Below are positions 1,029-44,320 of a stretch of 64,000 nucleotides of DNA, piece after piece. This stretch comes from an uncultured Candidatus Saccharibacteria bacterium (GTDB lineage Bacteria; Patescibacteriota; Minisyncoccia; Phycocordibacterales; CAYSCM01). Positions within the stretch are counted from its first letter, which is position 1, and every line of letters begins with the position of its first letter. The notes under the pieces are model-generated. The model saw only the letters and a list, made by a program, of their open reading frames with translations, did no database searches and was not told the DNA's origin. The stretch covers positions 32,001 through 96,000 of the forward strand of contig CAYSCM010000001.1 of assembly GCA_964429815.1 (NCBI GenBank), written 5' to 3'. The translations under genes and the position numbers were made by a program.

Positions 1029-1160
1029 GGTCCCTCCTGTTTGTTTGTTGGCTACTGTTTGGCCGGACGCATTCTGACACATCCATTTTATTTGTCAATA
1101 TTCTTCCAGGCTGTCTGGCAATAGAAACCCGTGCTAAGCTTCGCGAGTAACAAACGCGCT

Positions 1161-1697: not shown

Positions 1698-1737
1698 CCC
1701 AGTGACCCTTTATATGCGTGGTATGGTTATCTCACCT

Positions 1738-7933: not shown

Positions 7934-8587
7934 CTAGGGGATAAACCAGTAGTAGTCACCCGTGTAGCCGACCTCGGCGAAGAGTTTTTTCCAATCATCG
8001 ACAGATAGGATGGTCTTTGCAGTAAGATTCCACTTCATCATGCGATCCTTCTCTTCTTCATGGTGGTAGGCGTCGACGGTAATGAACGAGTGTTTTCCTT
8101 TCACACGCTCAATCTCTCGAAGAGCCTCTTTACACTCAGGCAGTGGTAGGTTGTGAATGGTGTTAATCGAAATCACGAGATCGTAGGATTTATCCGCAAA
8201 TTGACTAAGATTTCTTGCATCTCCAACCGATACTGCGCCCGCAATTGAGGGCATGGCATTTTCGATAGCGTAGGAGGAAACATCAATACCGCGAACCACC
8301 ATGTGGGGAAGCCAATAGAGAAAATCATTAAGCATAAATCCCTTAGCACACCCGACATCAAGTACCGAAGAGTTGTTGTTGAGTCCGTAGTAATTTATGA
8401 AATCCCGAACCACCGGTACCCACCTCCCATCATAGCGGAAGCCGCCGTAGCCCTGATCCCTGGTGCCATCAAAAAACTCCCTGCCAAACTTTCGGGCAGT
8501 AGCAACATCCTCAGGAGACTTTTGTCCTCGAGCTTCAATGTTGCGTTTGGCTTTTGGATATTTCGAAAGAAGATCGATTTCTGCCAT
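7934..8587 (-). CDS. class I SAM-dependent methyltransferase
   Basis: VLDVGCAKG motif I and DLVISINTIHNLP motif. Confidence 0.6.
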   Translation of the reverse strand: MAEIDLLSKYPKAKRNIEARGQKSPEDVATARKFGREFFDGTRDQGYGGFRYDGRWVPVVRDFINYYGLNNNSSVLDVGCAKGFMLNDFLYWLPHMVVRGIDVSSYAIENAMPSIAGAVSVGDARNLSQFADKSYDLVISINTIHNLPLPECKEALREIERVKGKHSFITVDAYHHEEEKDRMMKWNLTAKTILSVDDWKKLFAEVGYTGDYYWFIP

Positions 8588-8596
8588 AGTGGTTGG

Positions 8597-10366
8597 TTAT
8601 TTTTTTTCGGGAAGAAGCTTAACCATCATGTTGTCATTGAACTCTTTTCTTGCAAGTAGCGGCTCGGGATCCTCGAGCGGCCGACCGAACTTTACCTGCG
8701 GGATTACGCGGTGCTTCGGGTTAATCTCGATGTTACAAAACACAGGCCCCCTCATCGCGAGCACCTTCTTAACTCCCCCGCTCAACTCGCGGTTCTTCTT
8801 GATCGTAATGGTTTTGAAGCCAAAGGAGGAAGCAATTTTGGCAAAGTCTGGGAACGCAAGTCCTCCCCCTTCCGAAGACGCAAGATACGCCGAATTAAAC
8901 CACTGATCTTGAGTCTGCTGTATCATACTGTAGCCGTGGTTATTCAATACAAAAATCTTGATCGGAAGTTTGTGCTTGAGAAGGGTACTTAACTCTTGCA
9001 AATTCATTTGGAGTGAACCATCTCCGGTTACACAAATAATTGATTTCTTGTTAAGCGCCAGGCTTACCCCAATGCTCGCCGGCAAAGCCCACCCCATCGC
9101 GGTGTTGTTCCAATCGTGGTAAAGACGCTGACCTTTCTTGAAGGAAAATCCCTGCATCATCCATGCGACCGTGCAGCCGGTATCAATGACCATTACTTCG
9201 TTCTGACGCGTGTAGCGAGAGAGCTCCTCAACAAATACATACGGATTGACCCCTTTCTCTTTGTAGTACGCGGGTGGGCACATGGGATATTTTTTCTTCC
9301 ATGCGGCAATACGTCTAAGCCAGGGTGAGATGTCGTTTTTTGGCAAACGTGCGGCGTGCTTTTGAAATGCCTTCAGCAGCTCTTTTGCGTCACCGGAGAT
9401 ACGCACATCGACTTTCAGGCCAAATTTTTTAAACTTCTTAAGTTCGTAGGGGTCAATATCGATGACTATCTTTTTTGCCTCTCGCGCAAACGTGTTGGGA
9501 GGACTACCCGTCGATTTGGTATCAAGACGGCTTCCGATTGAGAGGATCATGTCAGCGTTCTGGACGGCAAAATTGGCAAACCGCGTGCCGTGAGTGCCAA
9601 AGGTGCCGATGCGAAGTGGATGACTCTCTGGCAGGAGATCCCCTGCCCCCCATGTGAGTGCCGCAGGAAAGCCGAGTGTTTCCAAAAGTGAGATGGCCTC
9701 TTTTTCGGCCCCCGCGAGGTGGATTCCCCACCCAAACACAACGACGGGGCGCTTCGCCTGCCGTAGATAGTTTATGCTTCGAGCTACATCAACCGGCGCT
9801 TTCTTCTTCTCGACGGAGGGTGTAAACGAGGGAAGCTCTCCTGGATTAATTTCTCTGCGCTGAATGTCGTCGGGAATATCGAGCACTACGGGTCCTGGCC
9901 TACCACTTCGCGCCAGAAAGATCGCTTTCTCAAGCTCGTAGCGTATGCGCCTCTCATCGGTGATGAGTATCGCGTACTTAGTGATAGGACGATACATTTC
10001 GACCGTTGCCGTTTCTTGAAAACCCACTTGCCGCACGTTGGTATGACCTTTCATCCTAAAGGTGGCTACTTGGCCGGTAATAAATATGACGGGTACCGAA
10101 TCGTAGTAGGCGGAGCACACTCCCGTGATCATGTTCGTAGCACCTGGCCCTGAGGTGGACATCGCTACACCGAGGCCACCCGTGGCCCTCGCGTACCCGT
10201 CGGCAGCCATTGCCCCCGCTTGCTCGTGTCCTGGACAGATGACCTCCATTCCCCCCGTGCGCGCCACCGAATGAATAAGGTGAAGGGATGCTCCGCCGGA
10301 GATGGCAAAGACATGCTTCACCCCTTCTTTGCGGAGAACCTGTGCTACGTAGTCGGTGAGCTTCAT
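8597..10366 (-). CDS. thiamine-diphosphate-dependent enzyme, acetolactate-synthase large-subunit-like (candidate sugar C-branching enzyme, YerE-like)
   Basis: N-terminal TPP pyrimidine-binding domain (AISGGASLHLIH...GPGATNMITG). Central domain. C-terminal TPP-binding GDGSLQMNLQELST...NNHGY motif. Confidence 0.7.
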   Translation of the reverse strand: MKLTDYVAQVLRKEGVKHVFAISGGASLHLIHSVARTGGMEVICPGHEQAGAMAADGYARATGGLGVAMSTSGPGATNMITGVCSAYYDSVPVIFITGQVATFRMKGHTNVRQVGFQETATVEMYRPITKYAILITDERRIRYELEKAIFLARSGRPGPVVLDIPDDIQRREINPGELPSFTPSVEKKKAPVDVARSINYLRQAKRPVVVFGWGIHLAGAEKEAISLLETLGFPAALTWGAGDLLPESHPLRIGTFGTHGTRFANFAVQNADMILSIGSRLDTKSTGSPPNTFAREAKKIVIDIDPYELKKFKKFGLKVDVRISGDAKELLKAFQKHAARLPKNDISPWLRRIAAWKKKYPMCPPAYYKEKGVNPYVFVEELSRYTRQNEVMVIDTGCTVAWMMQGFSFKKGQRLYHDWNNTAMGWALPASIGVSLALNKKSIICVTGDGSLQMNLQELSTLLKHKLPIKIFVLNNHGYSMIQQTQDQWFNSAYLASSEGGGLAFPDFAKIASSFGFKTITIKKNRELSGGVKKVLAMRGPVFCNIEINPKHRVIPQVKFGRPLEDPEPLLARKEFNDNMMVKLLPEKK

Positions 10367-10370: not shown

Positions 10371-11228
10371 CTACCAGGGCATCTGCTCCTTAACGCTTAT
10401 AAAGAGTGTCCCGTCACGGTAGCTCTCGGGCATATCGCCGGCTTTTGTGACAAGTCCCCACCCTATCTTCTGCGAGAACAAATTGACGCCGGAGCCTGTA
10501 AAGTGCTTGAAAATGTGCTTGGCATTCTCCGCGGTCCCAACCTCGACCAGGCCGTCACAGCTCTCCCAATCGGAAGCTTCGGTCGAGAGGAGTACTTCCT
10601 TCTCGTGCCCTTCGACGTCCATTTTGATGAGATCAGCGCCGGCGAGAATCGGCCCGAACGCTTCGAGCTCCACGGAGAACATTTCCCGATCCCCGTAGAC
10701 GTCGTGCTTTGCTCCCGAGAGGTGACTCCCCGTAGTGTTGCCGAGCACTCGGGTAAAATCTGCTGAACCCGAGCGACTTGAGACGGCGCTGTTGTGAAGG
10801 CTGGCAGAATTACATCCGTTACGCGCAAGATTTTTTTTGAGGATATCGAAATGAACCGGATCGGGCTCGTAGGAGGAAACCTTAAAACCACAACGACAAA
10901 GGATAATCGAGTGAAGTCCAATATTTGCTCCGAGGTCTACAACGCTCGTATAGCGATTGCGATTGCGCCAGTAAAAACTGAAAATAACGAGTTCATTGAG
11001 GTCAAAGAGATTCCGCGAATCGACATTACCCATGTTGTGGTATGGAAACGAGATATCTCCAAATGGCGGAAAGTGGACCGACTCTTTTGAATCAACGGGA
11101 AAGAGCCTCTCCACTTCCTTCCGAGCTTTGGCGGCACGTTCTTTGAATGGCGCGCTTGTCGGAGTATGAGAGGGTAATTCCTGCGGGAGCGTGGCAAAGA
11201 TATTCTCCAAAAAAGCCGAGGATTCCAT
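10371..11228 (-). CDS. FkbM-family methyltransferase
   Basis: VVDLGANIGLHS and IKMDVEGHE motifs characteristic of the FkbM family. Confidence 0.6.
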   Translation of the reverse strand: MESSAFLENIFATLPQELPSHTPTSAPFKERAAKARKEVERLFPVDSKESVHFPPFGDISFPYHNMGNVDSRNLFDLNELVIFSFYWRNRNRYTSVVDLGANIGLHSIILCRCGFKVSSYEPDPVHFDILKKNLARNGCNSASLHNSAVSSRSGSADFTRVLGNTTGSHLSGAKHDVYGDREMFSVELEAFGPILAGADLIKMDVEGHEKEVLLSTEASDWESCDGLVEVGTAENAKHIFKHFTGSGVNLFSQKIGWGLVTKAGDMPESYRDGTLFISVKEQMPW

Positions 11229-11244
11229 GACGGGAGATACCCTA

Positions 11245-14732: not shown

Positions 14733-14733
14733 G

Positions 14734-15231: not shown

Positions 15232-15233
15232 AG

Positions 15234-16238: not shown

Positions 16239-16249
16239 GTGAGCAAAGT

Positions 16250-17317
16250 TTAAAACGGACCGGTAAAACGCTTATCGGGCACATCGAGCGGCGTCGTGCG
16301 TTTCTTCTCTTCCGCTGCGACGAGCGACTCTAATTTTTTTGTATCCCCCTCAACCATAGAGACCACCATTCTGGCCATATCGATATAGCGCGGGTAGTAC
16401 TCATTGGCAAGCGCAGGCGTTGATGGGCTTGGCAGATCCGGCGCGGTAAGCCGGCGAGGGTTGGTCCGTAGACTGATTGTCGAATCCTCCGCGACTTGTG
16501 TGATTATCTCTCCCGCGACCCCGAAGCTGCGATGCCCGAGATCGGCCACAAGCAGCCGTCCTGTTTTTTTGACTGAGCGTGCTATTGTCTCGGTATCAAG
16601 AGGTTTAAGACTTCGCACATCGACGACCTCGGCGCTCACGCCAACCTTTTGGAGTAACTCCTGCGCACGCAGAGCCTCGTAGGTGAAGTAGGACGTTGTT
16701 ACAAGGGAAACATCGCTTCCCCGGCGCATTATACGAGCCTTGCCGATGGGCACCCTATAGTGACCCTCGGGAACATCTTCAGCAAGATCATGGAGCCATC
16801 GATGATCGATATATATGACCGGATTATCGTCCTCAATCGCGGCGAGCATCAGTCCCTTGGCATCGGAGGGGGTCGCGGGCATCACTACCTTGAGCCCGGG
16901 GATGTGCGCATAGAGGGCTTGGAGATTTTGTGAATGCTGCGGGCCCTGCCCCCATCCCATGCCGATGGTCATTTTCACCGTAAGGGGTACCGATTGCGCT
17001 CCGTTGTACATGTACGACCATTTCGCCGCATTGTTGATCACCTGCTCGATCGCAAGAAGGCTGAAGTCAACTCTCTGGTGCGTTAGGACTGGGCGCATCC
17101 CATTTACCGCCGCACCGATGCAGATCCCGGTTACCGCGAGCTCAGAAGTTGGCATATCAAGTACTCGTTTTGCGCCATGTTTTTTCTGAAGTCCCGTCGT
17201 CGTGCCAAAAATTCCCTTTGGATCAGGGACACCCAATCCTATAAGGAACACCGACTTGTCTTTAGCCAGAGCAAGATCAAATGCTTCTCGTATTGCTTGC
17301 GAATATGTTTTACGCAT
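16250..17317 (-). CDS. TPP-dependent 2-oxoacid dehydrogenase E1 component, beta subunit-like (transketolase-like C-terminal domains)
   Basis: E1-beta-like pyrimidine-binding and C-terminal transketolase domains. ATG 17317 overlaps the upstream alpha-subunit stop by 8 nt (ATGCGTAA), implying translational coupling. The track ORF extends to 17401. Confidence 0.7.
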   Translation of the reverse strand: MRKTYSQAIREAFDLALAKDKSVFLIGLGVPDPKGIFGTTTGLQKKHGAKRVLDMPTSELAVTGICIGAAVNGMRPVLTHQRVDFSLLAIEQVINNAAKWSYMYNGAQSVPLTVKMTIGMGWGQGPQHSQNLQALYAHIPGLKVVMPATPSDAKGLMLAAIEDDNPVIYIDHRWLHDLAEDVPEGHYRVPIGKARIMRRGSDVSLVTTSYFTYEALRAQELLQKVGVSAEVVDVRSLKPLDTETIARSVKKTGRLLVADLGHRSFGVAGEIITQVAEDSTISLRTNPRRLTAPDLPSPSTPALANEYYPRYIDMARMVVSMVEGDTKKLESLVAAEEKKRTTPLDVPDKRFTGPF

Positions 17318-18269
17318 AGAGGTGTTCGGCAAGAGCTTCCCTCTTTGGAAACGGGCTCTTTTCGGCAAAACGGAATGCTCCATCAACCTGTCGAATCGCA
17401 TCGTTTCGGATTTTTTCGATGAGGTCGCTAGAAAGCACCTCTTTCTTCAGGAGCTCACGCTCGAACATCGCGACAGGATCCTTCTTCTTCCACACGGCAA
17501 CCTCCTTCGGATCACGGTACCCAAGCTCGTCATCAAAATTTGGGCCGCAGTGCTCACGGTAGCGGTAGGTCGAAAATTCCAAAAAAACTGGACCCGAACG
17601 GACGGCTTTTCTGGCTTTTGTTGCGGCAGCGAGAACGGTCGAAACATCGTTACCATCGTGGCGCGACGCAGGAATGCCGTGCCCTTTGGCAAGCGCGTAG
17701 ATGGGGCGTTTAGGTTGGCGCTCAGAGAGATGTGTGTACACCGAGAAGCGGTTATCTTCGCACACAAATACAATGGGTAGTTTGTGGAGCGCCGCAAAAT
17801 TGAGACTTTCATGGAAAGCCCCCTCCTCGACGGTACCATCCCCAAAAAACGAAACGATGACGCGGTTTTCCTTCCGGAGCTTCGCTGCAAACGCCGCTCC
17901 CGTTGCAATCGGAATGCTGTTGCCGACGATGGGTGTGGCCCCGCCAAAACCGGCCTTGAGATCAATGAGGTGCATGGAGCCGCCCTTGCCACCGCAGCAG
18001 CCCGTAGCTTTGCCATAGAGCTCAGCCATCATCGCATTGAGGTTGCCGCCTTTAGCGAGGTAATGAGCGTGACAGCGATGGGTACTATACACGAGATCCT
18101 CTGCCGTGAGCGCCGCGCACACCCCAACCGCAACGGCCTCTTGGCCGATCGAGAGGTGGACGGGACAGCGCATCTTTCCTTCGCTATAGCGACGAGCTAT
18201 CGTCTCTTCCGTCGTGCGTATGAGAATGAGCTTGCGGTAGAGCGATAGGAGTGCTTCATTTTTCTTCAT
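17310..18269 (-). CDS. TPP-dependent 2-oxoacid dehydrogenase E1 component, alpha subunit-like
   Basis: GDG...EG TPP-binding motif region (SFFGDGTVEEGAFHESLNFAAL) and PIVFVCEDN motif typical of E1 alpha. No E2 or E3 genes in the window. Confidence 0.7.
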   Translation of the reverse strand: MKKNEALLSLYRKLILIRTTEETIARRYSEGKMRCPVHLSIGQEAVAVGVCAALTAEDLVYSTHRCHAHYLAKGGNLNAMMAELYGKATGCCGGKGGSMHLIDLKAGFGGATPIVGNSIPIATGAAFAAKLRKENRVIVSFFGDGTVEEGAFHESLNFAALHKLPIVFVCEDNRFSVYTHLSERQPKRPIYALAKGHGIPASRHDGNDVSTVLAAATKARKAVRSGPVFLEFSTYRYREHCGPNFDDELGYRDPKEVAVWKKKDPVAMFERELLKKEVLSSDLIEKIRNDAIRQVDGAFRFAEKSPFPKREALAEHLYA

Positions 18270-18270
18270 G

Positions 18271-19248: not shown

Positions 19249-19250
19249 AG

Positions 19251-20309: not shown

Positions 20310-20353
20310 GGTACCTGATGGGTGGGAAAAGAAAAGCCGCGAAAAGCTTCCTC

Positions 20354-21724
20354 CTAGGAAATAAAACTGAGCACAGCGGAAGCGATGTGAGAGGCCGACA
20401 TTCCGTCGAATTTCCAGCAGTAGCGATCTTTGAAAACTTTGCGCCGGTCGCTGTGAATCTCGGGGTGCGCAAGGTAGATGTTGATCCATTTCGCAAGTTC
20501 TCCCTTGGAGCCCACGAGAGCGGTCGAGCCGATGGAGAGCCAGGAAACTTGATTTTCCTCCAATCTCCAGCGCCTCACGAGGCTGCGCAGGAACGGTACC
20601 TTTGTTTCCCACCCGTCGAAATTGATGGTGATGAGCGGTTTATCGAAAATAGAAGAATCGATGATGATGGAAGAGATGGTATTGATGACCAGCGAGCTCC
20701 AGTAGAGTGAATCGTAAATGTGTTGAAAGAAGCTCATGTCGAGTTCCCCCTCTCGCTTGTCACGCTCAAGGTCATTGAGCTTGGCGGGGCCTGGAATATC
20801 AATAATAAAGTGCTCGTCTGGTGTGAATTTGGAGAGGTCGACGGGGAGGAACGGGTGGAGCCGAACCAAAATTTGCAAATCGTCGGGGATTTTCTTCTCC
20901 GCAAAGAGGTCTTTGAGGATCTGGCAGGTCTGCCAGTCGGTGTCGATGAAAAAATGTCCGGCGGGCGCGAAGAGGACGAGGCGTTTCTTCGGGTCAGCGC
21001 CGATTTTCTTAAAAAATTCTTCACGCGGGGTCGGCTGCATGGTGAGGTACTTTTCAAACTGCGGGACACCTGATAGCACGATCGTGGTCTCTTTGATGTG
21101 GTGGTAGCGCACCATATCCTCTTTCATGACCTCGTTATGGACGATGAGCCGATCCGGCACGAAGCGAGCATAGCTACGGGACGTCGTATTGTCCCACGAA
21201 CGCACCATCGCGACCGTTCTCACCCCGCGTGCTTTGGCATTTTTGAGAAGGAAGAGGTCCGAGTGATTAAAAAGGTCGGTCGCGAACACGACGCTGGGCC
21301 GATATGTCTCAACATATCGATTGAACGTGTCCTGATTATTGAGCCTATAGTCGAGAAAACGCAGGAATTTCTTGACTGGCGTGATCGGAGCGAACAGGGC
21401 CGTGAAGAGAAGCGACGTATAGTACTTCGGCCAGTTACCCGTCTTCGTCCGCGCCTCGAGTTTATGGATCCACATGACGTTCGTGTCGAGGAGCCACTCG
21501 GCCAGTCTTTGGAACAGCCGGTTGCGGAAACTGGTTACGTTCTTTCCAAGTTCCACCCCCTCGACAATGACGCCCGGGTAGCGTATTTTAAAATATTCCT
21601 CCTGGGGTTTTGCAACAAAAAGGACGACCCGCGCCTCCTTGGTGAGAAGATCGAGCACTCCCGTGTTGAGGATATTTTTTGTTATAAACGGATGAAAATC
21701 CGTAATGAAAACCGTCGGCTTCAT
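20354..21724 (-). CDS. hypothetical transferase (possible GT-B-like glycosyl- or glycerophospho-transferase; family unresolved)
   Basis: 456 aa soluble protein inside the glycan locus. Placement and size fit TagF/KpsS-type transferases, but no motif could be matched by eye. Confidence 0.3.
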   Translation of the reverse strand: MKPTVFITDFHPFITKNILNTGVLDLLTKEARVVLFVAKPQEEYFKIRYPGVIVEGVELGKNVTSFRNRLFQRLAEWLLDTNVMWIHKLEARTKTGNWPKYYTSLLFTALFAPITPVKKFLRFLDYRLNNQDTFNRYVETYRPSVVFATDLFNHSDLFLLKNAKARGVRTVAMVRSWDNTTSRSYARFVPDRLIVHNEVMKEDMVRYHHIKETTIVLSGVPQFEKYLTMQPTPREEFFKKIGADPKKRLVLFAPAGHFFIDTDWQTCQILKDLFAEKKIPDDLQILVRLHPFLPVDLSKFTPDEHFIIDIPGPAKLNDLERDKREGELDMSFFQHIYDSLYWSSLVINTISSIIIDSSIFDKPLITINFDGWETKVPFLRSLVRRWRLEENQVSWLSIGSTALVGSKGELAKWINIYLAHPEIHSDRRKVFKDRYCWKFDGMSASHIASAVLSFIS

Positions 21725-22821
21725 TGAAATAGAGACTTCACCGAGGCAATCACGTGGTCCGACTCAGTTTTCGTAAGTGACGGATAGAGCGGTAGTGCGA
21801 TCATGCCGAAGCCACGCCGCTCGGCGTTGGGGAAGTCCCCTTTTTTGTACGCATATTTTTCCACGTAGTAAGGTTCGAGTGGGATGGGATCGTGATTGAC
21901 TCCGGTCTCCACTCCTAAGGCAGAAAGTTTTTTGCGCAGCTCATCCCGATCGTTCGGATCGACATACATCGCAAAGACATCGTACGCGTGCCGAACATTC
22001 TTATTTCGTCTTGGAAAGGAGACGCCTTGGATGCCGACAAACGCCCTCTCATAGACCTCATACCACTTTTTGCGCTTTTTCCACTGGGCCTCAATACGCG
22101 CGAGTTGGGGAATAAGCATGGCGGCCTGGAATGAGGTCAGAGGGTAACGATAGCCCAGGTAGAGCATACGACGATTACCCTCTCTTTTTTCCATCCCACT
22201 GTCACAAAAAACCCGTACCTTGCGGCACAGCTCAGCGTCGTTGGAGACCATAGCCCCCCCTTGCCCGCTCGTGATGTTTTTTGCCGCATGGAAACTGAAG
22301 AAGGCCGCCGCGGTGAGCTGTCCAGGGCGGATCCCCTCAAAATCACTCTCGAGTGCATGCGCGGCGTCCTCGATGACAAGAAGATTGTGCTTTTTTGCGA
22401 TCTGTGCGAGCCGCTTGATATCGACCATGTTGCCGTAGTAGTGGACCGGTACGATAGCCTTTGTTTTTACGGTTACAGCTGCCTCAATTTTGGCGAGGTC
22501 GATGAGCGATGTGTCTGGATCGACATCAACAAATACTGGTTTCGCACCGGTGTATTCGATGGCGTTTGCAGTCTGGACCGCAGAGAGGGCCGACGTGATA
22601 ACTTCATCTCCTGATCCGACACCAAGGGATGCCAGGGTCGCATGGAGCGCCGCAGTGCCACTTCCCACGACCGCGGTGTCTTTCGCCCCAAGGTATGCCG
22701 CCAAGTCTCCTTCAAGCTCCTTGGAAACCGGCCCGTATGTAAGCCATCCCGATTTCATCGCTTCGGTGGCTCGTTGTATGTCAGCCTTCTTAATTTCGGG
22801 TTTTAGAAATTCTACCTTCAT
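21721..22821 (-). CDS. DegT/DnrJ/EryC1/StrS-family PLP-dependent sugar aminotransferase
   Basis: FSFHAAKNITSGQGG contains the conserved PLP-lysine. Family-typical N-terminal region. 4-nt overlap with the downstream gene. Confidence 0.75.
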   Translation of the reverse strand: MKVEFLKPEIKKADIQRATEAMKSGWLTYGPVSKELEGDLAAYLGAKDTAVVGSGTAALHATLASLGVGSGDEVITSALSAVQTANAIEYTGAKPVFVDVDPDTSLIDLAKIEAAVTVKTKAIVPVHYYGNMVDIKRLAQIAKKHNLLVIEDAAHALESDFEGIRPGQLTAAAFFSFHAAKNITSGQGGAMVSNDAELCRKVRVFCDSGMEKREGNRRMLYLGYRYPLTSFQAAMLIPQLARIEAQWKKRKKWYEVYERAFVGIQGVSFPRRNKNVRHAYDVFAMYVDPNDRDELRKKLSALGVETGVNHDPIPLEPYYVEKYAYKKGDFPNAERRGFGMIALPLYPSLTKTESDHVIASVKSLFQ

Positions 22822-23537
22822 CTCGTGAAGACAAGCATTTTGTATTTCGACTTCGTGGCGCCGACCATGCGATACAGCGAATCCAAAAACAAGGTGAGCG
22901 TGTATACAAACCAGTTTTTACCTAAATGAAAGAAAAGAAAACTATCGATGAAGTTGACATGGCGCAGTTCTGAGAGCGTGGCACCCACAGCCTCAAACTT
23001 AGCCTTAATCTCCGGCAGGGTTTCGACCTCCTTGTAAGACAACCCTTTCTGGAACGAAGGTACGCTCTCAGGTATGTACTCAAGCAATAGAATTTTGCTC
23101 CCCTTTTTCATGCCAGCTATTCCTTCAAAAAAGGCCAGCCTGGCTTCCGCCGAGAGGTGGACATATACGGTCGTAGTGTATACCACGTCGGCCTTCTTGA
23201 TAGCCTCGACAACTTCCGGTCGTGGTAATGGTTTTGGAACGAAGGATGTTTGCGGCAGGGTTCCGCGTATCCTCTGCACAATTTCGATATTGAACGGGAA
23301 ATCAAAACCCGTGAAGTGCGCGTTTGGCGCCAGTCTGTGAATCGCCTCAAGGTACTCGCCTACGCCGCACCCGACATCTACAACTTCCCTTGCTCCGGCA
23401 AAGTCACGGCGAGAGAAGGCGCCCGTGCGAATGTGGTAGGCGTACCGGTCTTGCCAAACATTATGATAGTGGCAGGGATTGTGGCCTTTTTTTGTTTGTT
23501 CGAGCCAATAGTCTTCTGTGCCGTTCGTATCAAGCAT
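22818..23537 (-). CDS. class I SAM-dependent methyltransferase
   Basis: VVDVGCGVGEY motif I. Confidence 0.55.
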   Translation of the reverse strand: MLDTNGTEDYWLEQTKKGHNPCHYHNVWQDRYAYHIRTGAFSRRDFAGAREVVDVGCGVGEYLEAIHRLAPNAHFTGFDFPFNIEIVQRIRGTLPQTSFVPKPLPRPEVVEAIKKADVVYTTTVYVHLSAEARLAFFEGIAGMKKGSKILLLEYIPESVPSFQKGLSYKEVETLPEIKAKFEAVGATLSELRHVNFIDSFLFFHLGKNWFVYTLTLFLDSLYRMVGATKSKYKMLVFTR

Positions 23538-29876: not shown

Positions 29877-29960
29877 GAGAGTGAGTGTTACACGTAAACT
29901 AAATCGACATCGGGAAAGTTGCAATGAGGAGCCTGCGTTTTACTTGTGGCGCTGAGGGGA

Positions 29961-29966
29961 TATAAT
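29961..29966 (+). promoter_or_regulatory. -10 hexamer TATAAT 8 nt upstream of an ATG (near-leaderless transcript likely)
   Basis: TATAAT at 29961..29966 and ATG at 29975. Weak -35 candidates upstream. Confidence 0.35.
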
Positions 29967-29974
29967 CCTTACCT

Positions 29975-31243
29975 ATGGACGACCGGGAACGTAGGGTGTG
30001 CCGTATATCCGGCGAGCCTCTCACCGAACTTTTCACACTCGGCGAACTTTACATTTCCGATTTCATCCCGCGAGAGGGAAAGCCCCGTATGAAAAACAAG
30101 GTTGAACTTAAGCTTATGCTTGCACCAAAATCCGGTTTGGTACAGCTCGCGCACACCGCCCCTTTCGATGAGATGTACGGCGAGTATTGGTACCGCTCGG
30201 GCACCAATGAGACCATGCGTCGGGAGCTTAAGGACATCGCAGATTCCGCTTCAAGACTTATGCGACTTGCGAAGGGAGACGTGGTAATTGACATCGGCTG
30301 TAATGACGGGACGCTTTTGAGTTTCCTGGGCACCGAGGTCGTCCGCATAGGCTTTGACCCCGCACGCGGAGACTATCCCGAGCTTGCAAAAAAACATGCA
30401 GACCTTGTCGTGACCGACTACTTCACCTGCGCTGCGTTCAAAAAATCGAGCTTTGGCAAGCAAAGGGCTAAGGTTATCACATCGATCGCGATGTTTTATG
30501 ACCTCGAGAAGCCCGATGAGTTCGTTGCGGATATTGCCGAGGCTCTCGACGATGAAGGACTTTGGATAATACAGATGAGCTACACTCCGCTCATGCTCAA
30601 GCAGTTGGCCTTTGACAACATCTGCCACGAGCACCTTGAGTACTATACGCTCCATTCGCTCCAGTACCTCCTCGCGAAGCATGGGCTCAAGGTCGTTGAC
30701 TGTCAGCTCAATGACGTCAATGGAGGGAGTTTCAGGATCTATATCCGCAAGGAGAAAGCTACTCCCGCCACATTTGCGACCGCGCCATACCGTTATGTAG
30801 CGCAATTCCGGGTCGATTCCATACTCGCGTATGAGAAAACCCTCAACCTAACCGACCCGAAGACCTACCTCGACTTTTTCGAACACGCGAAACGATTGAA
30901 AAAAGAAACCGTCGACTTTATCGTATCCGAAAAGAAAAAGGGTAAGAAGATCTGGGCGTATGGGGCCTCCACCAAGGGCAATACACTCCTGCAGTGGTTC
31001 GGTCTCAATGAGACCCACATCGACGGCATAGCGGAGCGCTCTCCGGCAAAGTTCGGGCTCAAGACAGTGGGCAGTAATATCCCAATTTATTCAGAAGAGG
31101 AGATGCGGGCCGCAAAGCCCGATTACCTTTTGGTCCTGCCGTGGCACTTTATCGAAGAGTTCGTGCGGCGAGAACAGGCGTTCCTCAACGGCGGCGGGAA
31201 ATTCATAGTTCCCTGCCCGAAGTTCGAAATAGTTGGCGCCTAG
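29975..31243 (+). CDS. NDP-hexose C-methyltransferase (TylC3/NovU-type sugar C-methyltransferase)
   Basis: SAM-binding VIDIGCNDG motif. Conserved C-terminal C-methyltransferase domain (IWAYGASTKGNTLL...PDYLLVLPWHF...GGKFIVPCP). Confidence 0.7.
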   Translation: MDDRERRVCRISGEPLTELFTLGELYISDFIPREGKPRMKNKVELKLMLAPKSGLVQLAHTAPFDEMYGEYWYRSGTNETMRRELKDIADSASRLMRLAKGDVVIDIGCNDGTLLSFLGTEVVRIGFDPARGDYPELAKKHADLVVTDYFTCAAFKKSSFGKQRAKVITSIAMFYDLEKPDEFVADIAEALDDEGLWIIQMSYTPLMLKQLAFDNICHEHLEYYTLHSLQYLLAKHGLKVVDCQLNDVNGGSFRIYIRKEKATPATFATAPYRYVAQFRVDSILAYEKTLNLTDPKTYLDFFEHAKRLKKETVDFIVSEKKKGKKIWAYGASTKGNTLLQWFGLNETHIDGIAERSPAKFGLKTVGSNIPIYSEEEMRAAKPDYLLVLPWHFIEEFVRREQAFLNGGGKFIVPCPKFEIVGA

Positions 31244-31246: not shown

Positions 31247-32251
31247 TTATTCCCTCCTCTGAGCCGCCTCTACCATTTCTTCGACTAGTTCCTTGAAGGA
31301 AATCTTTGGCTCCCATTCGAGCTCCTCAGCAATTTTTGCGTTGTCTCCACGGCGCGGATACATTTCCGCAGGGCGATAGAACTCGCTCGCCACGCGCACA
31401 CGCACAGTACCGGACGGGTCCACTCCGACCTCATATTGCCCTTCCGCTTTCCACGCGATATCCATACCAAGACGTTTCGCAGCTATTTCGATAAACTCCC
31501 GTACGGTATGGGCCCTGCCAGAGGCTATGACGTAGGACTCCGCCCTATCGTGCTGCAGGGTCTTCCAAACGGCTTGGACGACGTCTCTGGCGTGTGACCA
31601 ATCGCGCCTCACATCGAGATTCCCTATCCGCAACTCCTGCTCTTTCCCCAGAGAAATGCGCGCGAGCGTCGTCGCTATTTTTTGGGTCACGAATTCCCTT
31701 CCACGACGAGGACTCTCGTGATTAAAAAGAATTCCAGACACGGAAAAAATATGGTGGTCACGCCGATATGCCTCGATAAGGTTATGCGCAGCTGTTTTTC
31801 CGACGCCGTAGGGGTTGCAGGGCCGAAAGGGCGTATTCTCATTTTGCGGGCTTTCTGACGCTTCGCCGTACATTTCTGCCGATGATGCTTGGAACAGTCT
31901 CGATCCAGGCAAAAATTCTCGCATCGCCTCGAGGATAGTGAGGGGAACGAACGCAGTGCTCTCAAGGGTTTTGCGCGGGTTCTCCCAGGGGTTTGCCACC
32001 GTGCTCACCGAGGCAAGATTATATATTTCATCGGGACAGACGACTTTGAGCTGTTCGCGTAAAAAGTGAGAGTCGGTCACATCCCCTGCGGAGAGCGCGA
32101 CCCCGGTAACGTCTTTAAGATTTTCCTTCGTCGAACCTGCGCGTTCAATGCCGAACACCCGATATCCCTTTTGAAGCAAAAGTTCGGCCAAGTAGGAACC
32201 GTCTTGGCCGCCGATCCCCGTGATAAGGGCTGTTGTTGCCTTCTCTCTCAT
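31247..32251 (-). CDS. gmd: GDP-mannose 4,6-dehydratase
   Basis: LITGIGGQDGSYLAELLL, YGVGK and GILFNHESPRRG are hallmark Gmd motifs. Confidence 0.8.
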   Translation of the reverse strand: MREKATTALITGIGGQDGSYLAELLLQKGYRVFGIERAGSTKENLKDVTGVALSAGDVTDSHFLREQLKVVCPDEIYNLASVSTVANPWENPRKTLESTAFVPLTILEAMREFLPGSRLFQASSAEMYGEASESPQNENTPFRPCNPYGVGKTAAHNLIEAYRRDHHIFSVSGILFNHESPRRGREFVTQKIATTLARISLGKEQELRIGNLDVRRDWSHARDVVQAVWKTLQHDRAESYVIASGRAHTVREFIEIAAKRLGMDIAWKAEGQYEVGVDPSGTVRVRVASEFYRPAEMYPRRGDNAKIAEELEWEPKISFKELVEEMVEAAQRRE

Positions 32252-33283
32252 CTATTCATCTCCCCCCTTCTTATGGCCCGCGATAAGTCGTAGGTCCGAT
32301 TCAACCATCATCTCTACGAGATCTTGAAACGATACCTTCGGCTTCCACCCCAATTCCCGCAGGGCTTTGGTGGAATCGCCCTCAAGAGCCTCAACCTCCT
32401 GTGGTCGGAAGAAGCGCGAATTGACTTCGATGATACATTTTCCGTGCTGATCGTATCCCTTTTCTTCGAGTCCCTTCCCCCTCCACGTAATGTCGATCCC
32501 AAGCGCATGACACACCGCTGCGACAAGATCTCTCACGGTGTGGGACTTTCCTGTGGCGATAACATAATTCGAGGGTCGCGCAGGCTGGAGCATCATCCAC
32601 ATCGCCTCGACGTAATCTCCCGCAAAGCCCCAATCGCGTTTGGCCCCAAGGTTCCCTAGCCTTACTTTTTCCTGAAGTCCAAGTTTGATTTTCACCAATG
32701 AGTGGGTAAGTTTGCGTGTCACGAAGTGCTTGCCGCGGCGAGGACTTTCATGGTTGAACAATATTCCGGAGACAGCGTACTTACCTTCTTTTTGCCAGGC
32801 ACTCACAAGCTCATGTGAATGCAGTTTCGAGACCGCATACGGGCTTACTGGCTGAAATGGGCTCGCCTCGCTCTGCGGTGGCGGGGTGCTGCCGAACATT
32901 TCGCTAGTCGAAGCCTGATACACTTTCACTTTCGGGTTGCGACGGAATGCTTCAGTGCCAAGGCGTTCGAGGCCTTTGAAGTTTATATCGTCGGTCTCAT
33001 CGGGACAGAGAAACGAAACACCGACATGCGATTGTGCCGCAAGATTGTAGATCTCATCAGGTTTGGCTTCCTCAAGCGCTCGCACGATGGTCGGCATGTC
33101 GCGCATATTCCCATACATGAGATCGATCTCACCCTTGATATAGAGATCCTCTATCCGCACGAAAGGGTCCGTGCTGGTGCGGCGCATAAATCCGAATACT
33201 CGGTACCCTTTTCGTATCAGAAGCTCAGCCAGGTAGGAACCGTCCTGCCCCGTGATGCCTGTTATAAGAGCCCGTTTTTGCAT
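32252..33283 (-). CDS. gmd: GDP-mannose 4,6-dehydratase paralogue (tandem second copy)
   Basis: LITGITGQDGSYLAELLI, YAVSK and GILFNHESPRRG. Shares many residues with the neighbouring copy. Confidence 0.75.
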   Translation of the reverse strand: MQKRALITGITGQDGSYLAELLIRKGYRVFGFMRRTSTDPFVRIEDLYIKGEIDLMYGNMRDMPTIVRALEEAKPDEIYNLAAQSHVGVSFLCPDETDDINFKGLERLGTEAFRRNPKVKVYQASTSEMFGSTPPPQSEASPFQPVSPYAVSKLHSHELVSAWQKEGKYAVSGILFNHESPRRGKHFVTRKLTHSLVKIKLGLQEKVRLGNLGAKRDWGFAGDYVEAMWMMLQPARPSNYVIATGKSHTVRDLVAAVCHALGIDITWRGKGLEEKGYDQHGKCIIEVNSRFFRPQEVEALEGDSTKALRELGWKPKVSFQDLVEMMVESDLRLIAGHKKGGDE

Positions 33284-33291: not shown

Positions 33292-34515
33292 CTATACACT
33301 AGCGAGCGCCTCCCTGATAACTTCCTCCACCCGTTCACGGGAAAACAAGCTCTGCGAACACGCAACCGCCGCACGGGACATGGCCGCACGGACGGCGACA
33401 TTGCGTAGCGTTGAAAGCGCGGAGAGATACTCCTTAGCCGTCTCGGCATAGAACACTTCCTTCCCGTTTTCGAAGGGATAACCGACCGTACTGTACTTGG
33501 ACGTTATGAGCGGGACGCCACGCACCAGGGGTTCGAACACTTTTCCCTGCATGCCGACGCGCTTCGGGGATGGGACTAGGGCGATATCCATCGAACGCAC
33601 GTAGGTCGGAAATTCTTCGGAGGGGATGAAGCCGTCGTGGATGATCGTTTTTCCGTCGATATATTTCCGAAAATAATCGGGGAGTCGTGTGCCGGAGATA
33701 TGGAGCTCGTAGGCACCTGGAGAAGATCTTGCAAGTTCTGGCATGATGCGCCCCAGAATGAACTGAAGTGCCTTGCGGTTGTGGGATATGGCGTAGGAAG
33801 ATCCCAAAAAGAGCACCCGCAGCGGTTTCATCTCGCGAATAGGGTGAGATTCCCCTATGAGAGCGGGAAGCCATCGAAGCGGCAGCACTTCGACTTTCCG
33901 TGCTCCTAGACGCGCGTAGGCGGCTGCGTCGTTGGGATTGAGCGCTAGGATAAGTGTACTTTTTTTAGAGACCAGCCACTCGCTCATGAGTTTTATGAGA
34001 TAGCGTGGAATAGTTAGAAGCGAACGTTCGTGTTCCTCGAGGAAATGACGTGCTTCGAAATTTATCGATCGCGTTATTATCGGGATTCCGCGCGAACGAA
34101 CTTCTCCATAGAGTGGCCACAGATAGGTGTAGTCGAACCAAACAACGTCCGGCTGAAATGTGTTGAGTTCTTCCGCCAGTACCCTCCTCGTCAGCGGGTC
34201 ACTATACTCAAACGCCGCCCCGTCCCAAAGCCGCGGATCGATGAGACGCCGCAGGAAGCGCCCGAGACGCTCCTGGGTCGACCTCTCTCGGGCGAACGAG
34301 TAGGTGACTGGCCGTATTGGAATTCCCCACGTCCTCTGCGCTTCCTCCACCGCGCTCCTATCCGAAGGGACGACCATGACGATGACCCGCACCCTGCAGC
34401 CAAGCTTTTGGAGAAGCTTGATGCCCATGCCCCGATCAAGTTCATCGGCTCCCTGCATGGAAAAGGGGGTGCGAGGCGTTACCACCAGCACTTTCTTGCC
34501 GCGGATCCCTTCCAT
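33292..34515 (-). CDS. glycosyltransferase family 4
   Basis: GT-B/GT4-like organisation. C-terminal E...E region FEPLVRGVPLITS. Confidence 0.6.
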   Translation of the reverse strand: MEGIRGKKVLVVTPRTPFSMQGADELDRGMGIKLLQKLGCRVRVIVMVVPSDRSAVEEAQRTWGIPIRPVTYSFARERSTQERLGRFLRRLIDPRLWDGAAFEYSDPLTRRVLAEELNTFQPDVVWFDYTYLWPLYGEVRSRGIPIITRSINFEARHFLEEHERSLLTIPRYLIKLMSEWLVSKKSTLILALNPNDAAAYARLGARKVEVLPLRWLPALIGESHPIREMKPLRVLFLGSSYAISHNRKALQFILGRIMPELARSSPGAYELHISGTRLPDYFRKYIDGKTIIHDGFIPSEEFPTYVRSMDIALVPSPKRVGMQGKVFEPLVRGVPLITSKYSTVGYPFENGKEVFYAETAKEYLSALSTLRNVAVRAAMSRAAVACSQSLFSRERVEEVIREALASV

Positions 34516-44260: not shown

Positions 44261-44290
44261 GAGTATAGCAATTTTGCCGCCATCGCGATG

Positions 44291-44320
44291 CAAAAAGCCC
44301 CGCACTCTTTTGCGGGGCTT
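44291..44320 (-). terminator. rho-independent terminator (minus strand)
   Basis: AGCCCCGCA / TGCGGGGCT stem with a T-run on the minus strand. Confidence 0.6.

What the first reader, a model, noticed from the sequence alone, without database searches (positions are those of the whole stretch)
29975..31243. Heavy methylation capacity: TylC3-type C-methyltransferase plus FkbM plus four class I SAM methyltransferases plus a radical SAM enzyme in one locus
Seven predicted methyl-transfer enzymes are present (2565, 4432, 7934, 10371, 22818 and 29975, plus the B12-rSAM). They imply C- and O/N-methylated sugars reminiscent of antibiotic deoxysugar pathways. With amination (DegT), amidation (AsnB) and sulfation, the predicted glycan is chemically very elaborate for a small-genome organism.
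Basis: partly seen in the sequence, partly recalled or inferred. Interest (0 to 1): 0.5.

Follow-up and report, generated by a model that had tools for sequence, protein, structure and literature searches.

The report
Sugar-methylating enzymes in a CPR glycan locus
The flagged gene is a real sugar C-methyltransferase from a large uncharacterised branch of the TylC3/TcaB9 family; in small-genome (CPR) bacteria it always sits beside GDP-mannose dehydratase, and it is one of six (not seven) methyl-transfer genes, each in its own conserved sugar-pathway module.

Summary
Observation largely holds. ORF 29975-31243 (+) has the three-domain NDP-hexose C-methyltransferase architecture (Methyltransf_14 1e-45; model TM 0.88-0.90 to MtmC/TcaB9/KijD1). 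FkbM (10371) and three generic class I methyltransferases (4432, 7934, 22818) are real. ORF 2565 is itself the only radical SAM gene, so the count is six, not seven.

"TylC3-type" is true only at family level: identity to characterised enzymes is 23-28%. Two of five mutagenesis-probed TcaB9 residues differ (His181->Asp176, Tyr222->Cys217), while Tyr71, Glu219 and His220 are kept. Three of four zinc cysteines are lost in the CPR subclade.

All 16 closest genomic relatives have a GDP-mannose 4,6-dehydratase gene within about 3.3 kb, as here. The likely substrate is therefore GDP-4-keto-6-deoxymannose, giving a virenose/evalose-like C-methyl 6-deoxyhexose (inferred, untested).

The other methyl-transfer genes lie in three further conserved modules:
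- NeuB/KdsC/CMP-transferase + cobalamin-type rSAM + MT4432.
- A cross-phylum ThDP (YerE-like + E1αβ) module + FkbM + MT7934.
- GT4-MT22818-DegT.

None matches rRNA or quinone methylases.

Verdict: elaborate glycan methylation is supported by context. A new variant of a known enzyme kind, of moderate interest.

The parts
29975..31243 (+). Sugar-nucleotide C-methyltransferase, 422 aa, of the 'Y-D-C-E-H' clade. SAM motif VIDIGCNDG. Tyr71, Asp176, Cys217, Glu219, His220. Zinc ligand positions read C9/S12/A50/S53.
   Evidence: Pfam; PDB sequence search; AF2 model pLDDT 90.1 with TM 0.88-0.90 to MtmC, TcaB9 and KijD1; residue mapping.
29939..29966 (+). Promoter-like site TTTACT-16 nt-TATAAT (10 of 12). 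It ends 8 nt before the ATG, which suggests a leaderless or near-leaderless monocistronic transcript.
   Evidence: Consensus scan only (4 sites found against 3.1 expected in the region); sequence read.
32252..33283 (-). GDP-mannose 4,6-dehydratase (Gmd), the proposed supplier of GDP-4-keto-6-deoxymannose.
   Evidence: TIGR01472 394.8 bits (cut-off 415); PDB GMD 1e-108; catalytic T/E/Y/K motifs present; a homologue lies within 3.3 kb of the C-methyltransferase in 16 of 16 closest loci.
31247..32251 (-). Second Gmd-family paralogue (46% identical to Gmd), convergent with the C-methyltransferase and 3 bp from its stop codon. Candidate 4-ketoreductase or second dehydratase.
   Evidence: TIGR01472 333.5 bits; GMD structures 7e-86 against RMD 2pk3 4e-36; S/E/Y/K retained; co-conserved paralogue (51-52% identity) in L003, L004, L006, L013 and L061.
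33292..34515 (-). GT4-like glycosyltransferase, a candidate transferase for the C-methyl sugar.
   Evidence: Pfam; homologues at 44-48% identity lie next to the C-methyltransferase/Gmd pair in L007 and L012. One relative (P0361) is a GT4-C-methyltransferase fusion.
2565..4307 (+). Cobalamin-class (class B) radical SAM enzyme, 580 aa, with C277-x3-C281-x2-C284. Candidate C-methylase of a CMP-activated ulosonic acid or related substrate.
   Evidence: Pfam; NCBIfam class B hits, all far below their cut-offs; AF2 pLDDT 88.5; the top 16 Foldseek PDB hits are all class B rSAM enzymes: TokK, TsrM, OxsB, CysS, AprD4, MgmA.
4432..5394 (+). Class I SAM methyltransferase, 320 aa (Methyltransf_11), partner of the rSAM gene in module A.
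   Evidence: Pfam; orthologues at 42-43% identity lie next to rSAM orthologues in L082 and L084.
1131..2454 (+). KdsC-family sugar-acid phosphatase (1131-1697) and PseF/KdsB-like cytidylyltransferase (1702-2454). Together with NeuB just left of the window, these are the core of module A.
   Evidence: NCBIfam TIGR01670 114.3 against cut-off 106.95; PseF model 150.9 bits; NeuB and a second CTP_transf_3 gene upstream in L085.
10371..11228 (-). FkbM-family methyltransferase, 285 aa, in module B.
   Evidence: TIGR01444 78.5 against cut-off 37.7; the SDR-FkbM-ThDP enzyme trio is conserved in L087-L089.
7934..8587 (-). Class I SAM methyltransferase, 217 aa, in module B.
   Evidence: Pfam; orthologues at 55-61% identity in L087-L089.
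8597..10366 (-). Acetolactate-synthase-like (YerE-like) ThDP enzyme, in module B.
   Evidence: Pfam; TIGR00118 448.8 bits, below the cut-off of 538; orthologues at 60-63% identity in L087-L089.
16250..18269 (-). PDH-type E1 beta (16250-17401) and E1 alpha (17310-18269) ThDP pair, in module B.
   Evidence: Pfam; NCBIfam; orthologues at 49-55% identity in L087 and L089.
22818..23537 (-). Class I SAM methyltransferase, 239 aa. Its ends overlap GT4 (23530-24669) and DegT (21721-22821). Module C.
   Evidence: Pfam, weak; the same GT4-MT-DegT order is found in the five metagenome loci that reach far enough on both sides (L090-L094), and the parts seen in the truncated L095 and L096 agree; identity 45-57%.
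21721..22821 (-). DegT/PseC-like sugar aminotransferase, in module C.
   Evidence: Pfam 3.6e-106; NCBIfam PseC model 283.6 bits.

Best explanation
ORF 29975-31243 encodes a SAM-dependent C-methyltransferase that acts on a nucleotide-activated 4-keto-6-deoxyhexose, most probably GDP-4-keto-6-deoxy-D-mannose made by the adjacent Gmd (32252-33283). By analogy with TcaB9 and TylC3, the conserved Glu219/His220 pair removes the proton on the carbon next to the 4-keto group. C3 is most likely; C5 is not excluded. The enolate then attacks the methyl group of SAM. The branched 4-keto product would be reduced, perhaps by the Gmd paralogue 31247-32251 or another SDR. This would give a GDP-6-deoxy-C-methylhexose (evalose/virenose-like) that a nearby GT4 enzyme adds to a surface glycan. 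The enzyme belongs to a large uncharacterised clade in which TcaB9 His181 is Asp and Tyr222 is usually Cys. Its CPR subclade has also lost the structural zinc site. The gene is one of six methyl-transfer candidates in the locus, and each is embedded in a separately conserved module. Module A: NeuB/KdsC/CMP-transferase, cobalamin-class rSAM and MT4432. Module B: HldE-like enzymes, a 4,6-dehydratase, two ThDP systems, FkbM and MT7934. Module C: NDP-sugar dehydrogenase, SDR, GT4, MT22818 and DegT. Module D: the C-methyltransferase with Gmd. What is shown: fold, motifs, gene content and conservation of context. What is inferred: the substrates, the regiochemistry, the reductase, and the methylase activity of the rSAM enzyme.
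For: Family and fold. The SAM motif and Tyr71/Glu219/His220 are conserved in all relatives. Link to Gmd: 16 of 16 closest genome loci (63-68% identity) carry a gmd homologue within 3.3 kb, and 10 of 10 tested neighbours match only TIGR01472 at E<1e-40, four of them above the equivalog cut-off; in the ORF-based count, 15 of the 17 loci whose C-methyltransferase is at least 60% identical have one within 3 kb, and the two exceptions are 2-3 kb contigs. Fusions tie the clade to NDP-sugar and glycan chemistry: P0361 is GT4 + C-methyltransferase and P0388 is NTP_transferase + C-methyltransferase. A GDP route with Gmd and a TylCIII-like enzyme has been proposed for Coxiella virenose (PMC3539893). The same paper lists a bifunctional GMD among candidate 4-ketoreductases. 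Modules A-C. rSAM fold class. Cobalamin rSAM enzymes that C-methylate sugars are known (GenD1 and GenK, PMC4340712).
Against: There is no biochemical evidence for any member of this clade. Identity to characterised enzymes is only 23-28%, and two probed active-site residues differ, so chemistry or regiochemistry could differ. Classic-type (Y-H-Y-E-H) C-methyltransferase paralogues also sit next to Gmd in L002 and L014. The two types may therefore do different jobs on GDP-sugars, and C3 may belong to the classic type. Only 19 of 58 more distant relatives (under 60% identity) have Gmd nearby. No GDP-mannose pyrophosphorylase or phosphomannomutase gene is in the window. The Gmd paralogue keeps the dehydratase Glu and resembles GMD far more than RMD, so its reductase role is a guess. 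The Pfam B12-binding match of the rSAM enzyme is sub-threshold (16.7 against 32.1), and its fold class includes non-methylases (OxsB, AprD4).
Confidence: 0.55

Rival explanations
1. It is a conventional TylC3/EryBIII-like enzyme that methylates C3 of a dTDP-4-keto-2,6-dideoxyhexose, as in antibiotic deoxysugar pathways.
For: Same three-domain architecture and fold. An RmlB-like 4,6-dehydratase is present in the window at 15234-16238 (TIGR01181 188.7 bits, below the cut-off).
Against: None of the roughly 55 ORFs scanned in the window is a glucose-1-phosphate thymidylyltransferase, an NDP-hexose 2,3-dehydratase or a 3-ketoreductase. The RmlB-like gene lies 14 kb away inside module B. The universally conserved neighbour is Gmd, not RmlA/B. 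His181 and Tyr222 of the dTDP enzymes are replaced.
Confidence: 0.1
2. It acts on a GDP-4-keto-6-deoxyhexose but with different regiochemistry or an extra activity. It could be a C5-methylase like NovU/CloU, or a bifunctional methyltransferase/4-ketoreductase like MtmC, its best structural match.
For: MtmC is the top sequence and fold hit. PMC3539893 notes that the S. argillaceus TylCIII homologue has 4-ketoreductase activity. Some genomes carry both a classic-type and this type of C-methyltransferase beside one Gmd (L002, L014), which suggests non-redundant roles. No dedicated RMD-type reductase is present.
Against: Nothing in the sequence positively indicates C5 chemistry or NADPH use. That NovU is a C5-methylase is own knowledge and was not tested here.
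Confidence: 0.25
3. The methyltransferases, or some of them, are not glycan enzymes at all. They would be housekeeping or small-molecule methylases (RNA, quinone, lipid, protein) that merely lie among glycan genes.
For: The three generic class I enzymes give only weak, non-specific family hits: UbiE, MetW, BioC and RlmA models at 18-37 bits. The best PDB hit for MT7934 is a phospholipid N-methyltransferase at 3.6e-06.
Against: All such hits are far below the curated cut-offs (for example UbiE 19.5 against 216, RlmA 23.2 against 303). Each gene keeps the same sugar-pathway neighbours in unrelated genomes, often with overlapping reading frames.
Confidence: 0.08
4. The radical SAM enzyme at 2565 is not a methyltransferase. 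It would instead be a class B rSAM enzyme that carries out a rearrangement, dehydration or cyclisation (OxsB-, AprD4-, BchE- or HpnJ-like) on the ulosonic-acid or CMP-linked intermediate.
For: OxsB and AprD4 are among its top fold matches. The best NCBIfam hits include BchE and HpnJ. The Pfam B12-binding score is sub-threshold.
Against: Most top fold matches are methylases (TokK, TsrM, CysS, MgmA). P-methyltransferase and C-methyltransferase models also score. It is consistently paired with a class I methyltransferase, which neither supports nor excludes this rival.
Confidence: 0.35

Closest known systems
TylC3 / TcaB9 / KijD1 / MtmC NDP-hexose C3-methyltransferases (PDB 3ndi, 5t64, 4rv9)
   Same: Same three-domain layout (N-terminal beta domain, class I SAM domain, Methyltransf_14 domain). 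Model TM 0.86-0.93 and rmsd 2.3-2.8 A to the best chains. SAM motif, Tyr76, Glu224 and His225 equivalents conserved.
   Different: 23-28% identity. His181 is Asp176 and Tyr222 is Cys217. Three of four zinc cysteines are lost (C-S-A-S). The conserved neighbour is Gmd (GDP-sugar) rather than the dTDP-sugar enzymes. The setting is a surface-glycan locus of a CPR bacterium, not an antibiotic cluster.
Proposed GDP route to virenose in Coxiella burnetii (Gmd CBU_0689 + TylCIII-like CBU_0691)
   Same: A Gmd and a C-methyltransferase lie in one glycan locus, giving a predicted GDP-6-deoxy-3-C-methylhexose (PMC3539893). An HldE-like gene is also part of that region (PMC13252051), as it is here.
   Different: CBU_0691 is reported as 42-44% identical to TylCIII, EryBIII and AviG1, that is, of the classic type. 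The pathway is in silico and was 'not fully characterized' as of 2026. No sequence comparison with CBU_0691 could be run here.
Cobalamin-dependent radical SAM methylases (GenK/GenD1, TokK, TsrM, CysS; Fom3)
   Same: CxxxCxxC cluster and an N-terminal Rossmann-like domain plus rSAM barrel fold. GenD1 and GenK C-methylate unactivated sugar carbons (PMC4340712). Fom3 acts on a cytidylylated substrate (own knowledge), which echoes the adjacent cytidylyltransferase.
   Different: 14-18% identity only. All curated models score far below their cut-offs. The context is a NeuB/KdsC/CMP-transferase module in CPR genomes. Cofactor and reaction are untested.
YerE/YerF branched-chain sugar system (yersiniose) and E1αβ-type sugar branching enzymes
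   Same: An acetolactate-synthase-like ThDP enzyme sits next to a short-chain reductase in an NDP-sugar cluster. YerE ligates pyruvate to a CDP-4-keto sugar, and YerF then reduces the product (PMC9306805).
   Different: Here an FkbM methyltransferase sits between the reductase and the ThDP enzyme. A second ThDP system (E1αβ), a Zn-ADH and another methyltransferase are co-conserved. There was no direct sequence comparison with YerE.

Membership tests
NDP-hexose C-methyltransferase (TylC3/TcaB9/MtmC/KijD1) | Three-domain architecture: N-terminal domain, class I SAM domain, Methyltransf_14 C-terminal domain | tested here: met
   Pfam PF08484 1e-45 and PF13489 6e-15. The full-length model superposes on MtmC, TcaB9 and KijD1 with TM 0.86-0.93.
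NDP-hexose C-methyltransferase (TylC3/TcaB9/MtmC/KijD1) | SAM-binding glycine-rich motif (xEIGxNxG) | tested here: met
   VIDIGCNDG aligns with VEIGCNDG of TcaB9 and LEIGSNTG of MtmC. D106, N110, D111 and G112 are invariant in 57 relatives.
NDP-hexose C-methyltransferase (TylC3/TcaB9/MtmC/KijD1) | Cys4 zinc site in the N-terminal domain (Pfam Methyltransf_13) | tested here: not met
   Only C9 remains; S12, A50 and S53 replace the other ligands. The same C-S-A-S pattern is found in all relatives of at least 64% identity. PF08421 scores 30.3, below the cut-off of 31.3. Relatives at 43-53% identity mostly keep CCCC.
NDP-hexose C-methyltransferase (TylC3/TcaB9/MtmC/KijD1) | Glu224/His225 pair and Tyr76 (TcaB9 numbering; residues probed by the mutants in PDB 4e2y, 4e2z, 4e31) | tested here: met
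   Glu219, His220 and Tyr71 are present and invariant or nearly so in 80 locus-encoded and 150 representative relatives.
NDP-hexose C-methyltransferase (TylC3/TcaB9/MtmC/KijD1) | His181 and Tyr222 (TcaB9 numbering; mutants 4e2w, 4e2x) | tested here: not met
   Asp176 and Cys217 occupy these positions. Asp is near-universal in the clade. Position 217 is Cys in about 107 of 150 representatives and otherwise G, V, S, A or I.
NDP-hexose C-methyltransferase (TylC3/TcaB9/MtmC/KijD1) | Methylates the carbon alpha to the 4-keto group of an NDP-4-keto-6-deoxyhexose | not testable with these tools
   Only context is available: Gmd adjacent in 16 of 16 closest loci, and fusions to an NTP_transferase and to a GT4 in relatives.
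Class B (cobalamin-dependent) radical SAM methyltransferase, for ORF 2565 | CxxxCxxC [4Fe-4S] motif in a radical SAM barrel | tested here: met
   C277, C281 and C284. PF04055 9.3e-16.
Class B (cobalamin-dependent) radical SAM methyltransferase, for ORF 2565 | N-terminal cobalamin-binding Rossmann-like domain | tested here: inconclusive
   PF02310 scores only 16.7 bits against a cut-off of 32.1, though it is recorded for many homologues. In the model (pLDDT 88.5), the top 16 PDB fold hits are all class B enzymes.
Class B (cobalamin-dependent) radical SAM methyltransferase, for ORF 2565 | Methyl transfer via methylcobalamin | not testable with these tools
   The fold class also holds the non-methylases OxsB and AprD4.
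FkbM-family methyltransferase, for ORF 10371 | Match to the FkbM domain model above the curated cut-off | tested here: met
   TIGR01444 78.5 bits against 37.7; PF05050 41.7 against 22.7.
   The best such hits are UbiE 19.5 against 216, RlmA 23.2 against 303, MetW 34.2 against 189.5 and BioC about 21 against 185. Only RsmI at 46244, outside the locus, is an rRNA methylase.
GDP-mannose 4,6-dehydratase, for ORFs 32252 and 31247 | Gmd equivalog score and catalytic Thr/Ser-Glu-Tyr-Lys residues | tested here: inconclusive
   TIGR01472 scores 394.8 and 333.5, both below the cut-off of 415. Both match GMD structures at 1e-108 and 7e-86 and keep the STSE/SSAE and YxxxK motifs.

The most novel reading that the evidence does not exclude
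CPR bacteria, and many DPANN archaea and other phyla, would use a distinct, so far uncharacterised subclass of sugar C-methyltransferase. It has Asp/Cys in place of His/Tyr and is zinc-free in CPR. It would work on GDP-4-keto-6-deoxymannose, making it the first demonstrated GDP-dependent C-branching methylase. The same locus would add a cobalamin-dependent radical SAM methylation of a CMP-activated ulosonic acid, in an organism unlikely to make cobalamin, and a cross-phylum ThDP-based branching pathway with its own FkbM and class I methylases. The surface glycan would then carry several different carbon branches.
Probability: 0.35. Interest if true: 0.6.

Novelty: new variant of a known kind. 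Interest (0 to 1): 0.45.

Why it matters
CPR/Patescibacteria live attached to host cells and have minimal metabolism, yet here tens of kilobases are devoted to modifying sugars. If the predictions hold, three things follow. First, the C-methyltransferase + Gmd cassette would be a widespread route to a C-methyl-branched 6-deoxyhexose on CPR cell surfaces, with hundreds of 90%-identity clusters in the closest subclade alone. That would give a concrete chemical marker for host recognition or phage defence. Second, it would be the first biochemical test case for GDP-sugar C-methylation, a step still unresolved for Coxiella virenose. Third, the Asp/Cys active-site variant and the loss of zinc offer a natural experiment on what those residues do in the TcaB9 family. 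The three other modules are compact, conserved targets for discovering new branched or methylated sugars.

Tried and rejected
1. This was rejected: it is the radical SAM gene, and no other CxxxCxxC ORF exists in the window.

2. I looked for an NCBIfam equivalog for the C-methyltransferase. There is none, only weak BioC and DVU1556 hits.

3. I considered whether 31247 is an RMD-type GDP-4-keto-6-deoxymannose reductase. This was rejected as a family assignment: it matches GMD structures at 7e-86 against RMD 2pk3 at 4e-36, and it keeps the dehydratase Glu.

4. I tested whether the classic and the Asp/Cys clades split cleanly by nucleotide carrier. This was rejected: classic paralogues also lie beside Gmd in L002 and L014.

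5. I tested whether Cys217 is strictly required. This was rejected: about 30 of 150 diverse representatives have G, V, S, A or I there.

6. PDB sequence searches for MT4432, MT7934, MT22818 and FkbM gave nothing diagnostic.

7. I tried to read the TcaB9 mechanism papers by DOI. They are not held. The roles of the TcaB9 residues therefore rest on PDB entry titles and on own knowledge.

9. A recent preprint on CPR methyltransferases has no sugar or glycan content.

Full report
**What is at the coordinates.** ORF 29975-31243 (+) is intact, 422 aa, with no compositional anomaly against its surroundings (GC about 0.53).
- Pfam finds the C-methyltransferase C-terminal domain (PF08484, 1e-45), a class I SAM domain (PF13489, 6e-15) and a sub-threshold match to the N-terminal 'putative zinc binding domain' (PF08421, 30.3 bits against a cut-off of 31.3).
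- The only solved relatives found by sequence are MtmC (1.8e-46) and TcaB9/KijD1 (about 1e-32).
- An AlphaFold2 model built on 57 relatives (pLDDT 90.1) superposes over its whole length on MtmC, TcaB9 and KijD1. TM is 0.86-0.93 and rmsd 2.3-2.8 Å for the best chains. The next fold hit drops to TM about 0.3.

**The tally.**
- FkbM at 10371 passes its curated cut-off.
- ORFs 4432, 7934 and 22818 are class I SAM methyltransferase folds.
- ORF 2565 is not a class I enzyme. It is the radical SAM protein itself (PF04055 9e-16; C277-x3-C281-x2-C284), and no other ORF in the window carries a CxxxCxxC motif.
- The locus therefore has six methyl-transfer candidates, not seven.
- DegT, AsnB and two sulfotransferases are confirmed.
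- The host is a bacterium with unlinked 16S and 23S-5S genes. Close homologues come from Parcubacteria-type CPR genomes.

**How 'TylC3-like' the enzyme is.** I aligned the protein with 80 homologues encoded in genome loci and with TcaB9 and MtmC, then mapped the five TcaB9 residues probed by mutagenesis. The mutants are named in PDB titles: Y76F, H181N, Y222F, E224Q, H225N.
- Characterised enzymes, and five distant paralogues from the same kind of loci, read Y-H-Y-E-H and have four zinc cysteines.
- The window protein and nearly all relatives at 43-68% identity read Y-D-C-E-H: Tyr71, Asp176, Cys217, Glu219, His220.
- In 150 representatives of 50%-identity clusters (39-65% identical to the query), Asp176, Glu219 and His220 are essentially universal. 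Position 217 is Cys in about 107 and a small or aliphatic residue in the rest.
- The zinc ligands are CCCC in most of this clade. They are C-S-A-S in the window protein and in every relative of at least 64% identity, all from CPR genomes.

The enzyme is therefore a member of the fold family that fails two of its textbook features: the zinc site and two active-site residues. It lies 23-28% from anything characterised. At least 1,923 clusters at 50% identity match at E≤1e-30. The 120 best 90%-identity clusters are all at least 63% identical, so the CPR subclade alone is large.

**Substrate inference from context.**
- The gene is monocistronic on the + strand among − strand genes. It is divergent from a sulfotransferase and convergent (3 bp apart) with a Gmd paralogue, which is followed by Gmd itself.
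- In all 16 closest genome loci (63-68% identity, from Paceibacterota, Adlerbacteria, Kaiserbacteria, Magasanikbacteria, Yanofskybacteria and 'Saccharibacteria'-labelled MAGs), a gmd homologue lies within about 3.3 kb.
- Ten of ten such neighbours match only TIGR01472 (gmd) at E<1e-40, four of them above the equivalog cut-off.
- Nothing else from the window is consistently linked.
- Nine of the 16 have two Gmd-family genes, as here.
- Only 19 of 58 relatives below 60% identity have Gmd within 10 kb.
- Two relatives are fusions: GT4 + C-methyltransferase (P0361, 65% identical, C-S-A-S type) and NTP_transferase + C-methyltransferase (P0388).
- No RmlA, NDP-hexose 2,3-dehydratase or 3-ketoreductase is present among the scanned ORFs.

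The best-supported substrate is thus GDP-4-keto-6-deoxy-D-mannose. The chemistry would be the enolate methylation established for TylC3 and TcaB9 (own knowledge of that family). The route was proposed in silico for Coxiella virenose (PMC3539893). A 2026 preprint still describes that pathway as not fully characterised (PMC13252051).

There are caveats. Classic-type paralogues also sit beside Gmd in L002 and L014, so the two types may differ in regiochemistry (C3 or C5) or act on different intermediates. The reductase is also unassigned. The Gmd paralogue keeps all dehydratase residues and resembles GMD far more than RMD.

**The other methyl-transfer genes.** Each sits in its own conserved module.

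*Module A.*
- The rSAM protein has CPR-wide homologues at 54-74% identity.
- In three relatives and in the source contig it sits with or near NeuB and a CTP_transf_3 cytidylyltransferase. A KdsC-type HAD phosphatase (L082, the source contig) and a ~310-aa Methyltransf_11 enzyme orthologous to 4432 (L082 and L084, 42-43% identity) are adjacent in only some of these places.
- NeuB and a second cytidylyltransferase lie just left of the window.
- The rSAM model (pLDDT 88.5) has as its top 16 PDB fold hits only cobalamin-class enzymes: TokK, TsrM, OxsB, CysS, AprD4 and MgmA.
- The Pfam B12-binding score is sub-threshold, and the class includes non-methylases.

*Module B.*
- The SDR 11245, FkbM 10371, the acetolactate-synthase-like ThDP enzyme 8597, MT7934 and Zn-ADH 6928 recur at 44-63% identity in loci from Patescibacteria, Chlamydiae and Elusimicrobia. 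The E1α/β pair recurs in the Patescibacteria and Elusimicrobia loci, and the HldE-like kinase and nucleotidyltransferase and the 4,6-dehydratase only in the Elusimicrobia locus.
- The ThDP enzyme plus reductase pairing recalls YerE/YerF in yersiniose synthesis (PMC9306805).

*Module C.*
- MT22818 overlaps GT4 upstream and DegT downstream.
- The order NDP-sugar dehydrogenase, SDR, GT4, MT, DegT, TagF-like is kept in metagenome loci at 45-57% identity: the GT4-MT-DegT core is complete in L090-L094, and the truncated L095 and L096 agree as far as they reach.
- It is sometimes followed by the module A cytidylyltransferase and rSAM genes.

None of the six candidates approaches the curated score of an rRNA, quinone or other housekeeping methylase. 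PDB sequence searches for the generic ones were uninformative. Their atoms of attack (O, N or C) cannot be assigned.

**Verdict.** The interpretation (sugar methylation, elaborate glycan) is supported by conserved context but not demonstrated. The antibiotic-deoxysugar analogy should be replaced by a GDP-mannose-derived, virenose/evalose-like model. The flagged enzyme is a new variant of a known enzyme kind. Interest is moderate. Nothing categorically new is shown, but the locus gives several sharply testable predictions about CPR surface chemistry.

Noticed in passing
Relatives P0362-P0365, P0374, P0385, P0391, P0417, P0502; window-equivalent positions G108|C109, I216|C217, A331|S332 of ORF 29975-31243: Nine of 150 diverse representatives of this C-methyltransferase clade carry 320-404-aa insertions at three different conserved motifs. 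The seven scanned with Pfam have LAGLIDADG homing-endonuclease domains, four of them also an intein splicing domain; P0417 and P0502 were called from insertion size and position only. The sites are the SAM motif (DIG|CNDG), the active-site motif (FDNI|CHEH) and the C-terminal YGA|STKGNT motif, with Cys109, Cys217 or Ser332 as the +1 extein residue. The window protein has no intein. Inteins in a glycan-pathway methyltransferase appear unusual.
   Followed up: partly
window 5391-12042 and 13509-20612 (- strand); loci L087, L088, L089: A module with two ThDP-dependent systems (YerE/acetolactate-synthase-like 8597; E1α/β 17310/16250), FkbM, a 217-aa methyltransferase, an SDR, a Zn-ADH, a GmhA-like isomerase and HldE-like kinase/nucleotidyltransferase. 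Its core is conserved at 44-63% identity in Patescibacteria, Chlamydiae and Elusimicrobia; the E1 pair and HldE-like genes recur only in some of these loci. It looks like an uncharacterised pathway to an acyl- or hydroxyalkyl-branched, methylated higher sugar.
   Followed up: partly
window 441-5394 and L085 1-7436 (left of the window): The glycan locus continues beyond the left edge of the window. There it holds NeuB, a second CTP_transf_3 cytidylyltransferase, a cupin, two 2-hydroxyacid dehydrogenases, two AAA_33 kinase-like genes and a second HAD phosphatase. The last of these is on the - strand at about 441-1028, not the + strand ORF 474-1124.
   Followed up: partly
window 50519-51980, 60916-61021, 61464-64000: The rRNA genes are unlinked. 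The 16S gene is separated from 5S-23S by about 9 kb that holds SecD/SecF, an epimerase, a Bac_transf initiating sugar transferase, a GT4 and FtsW/RodA. tRNA-Ile(GAT) and tRNA-Leu(CAG) lie about 2 kb from the 16S gene, on the side away from the 23S-5S genes (48309-48616), rather than in a spacer. The 23S match spans about 160 nt more than the model positions covered, which may indicate an insertion.
   Followed up: no
window 41719-44305: Directly after the last glycan SDR gene come a lamin-tail-domain protein (41719-42498) and a 608-aa TraG/TrwB/HerA-like coupling ATPase (42479-44305). These are followed by a DUF4015 glycosyl-hydrolase-like protein (44620-45975) and a C39-like peptidase (47268-47810).
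   Followed up: no
window 29925-29974: The short divergent intergenic region holds a near-consensus promoter-like site (TTTACT-16-TATAAT) that ends 8 nt before the ATG of the C-methyltransferase. There is no well-spaced Shine-Dalgarno sequence, which suggests a leaderless transcript. This is a consensus match only.
   Followed up: no
loci L002, L010, L014, L058, L062, L087: Several CPR genomes carry both a classic (Cys4, Y-H-Y-E-H) C-methyltransferase and the Asp/Cys-type enzyme in one glycan locus, in two cases (L002 and L014) beside the same Gmd. This implies two different C-methylations in those organisms.
   Followed up: partly
window 13509-14732 (-): A 407-aa ORF with no Pfam match and no predicted membrane segments sits next to the flippase. 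A homologue at 45% identity is also found next to a flippase homologue in metagenome locus L091. Its function is unknown.
   Followed up: no
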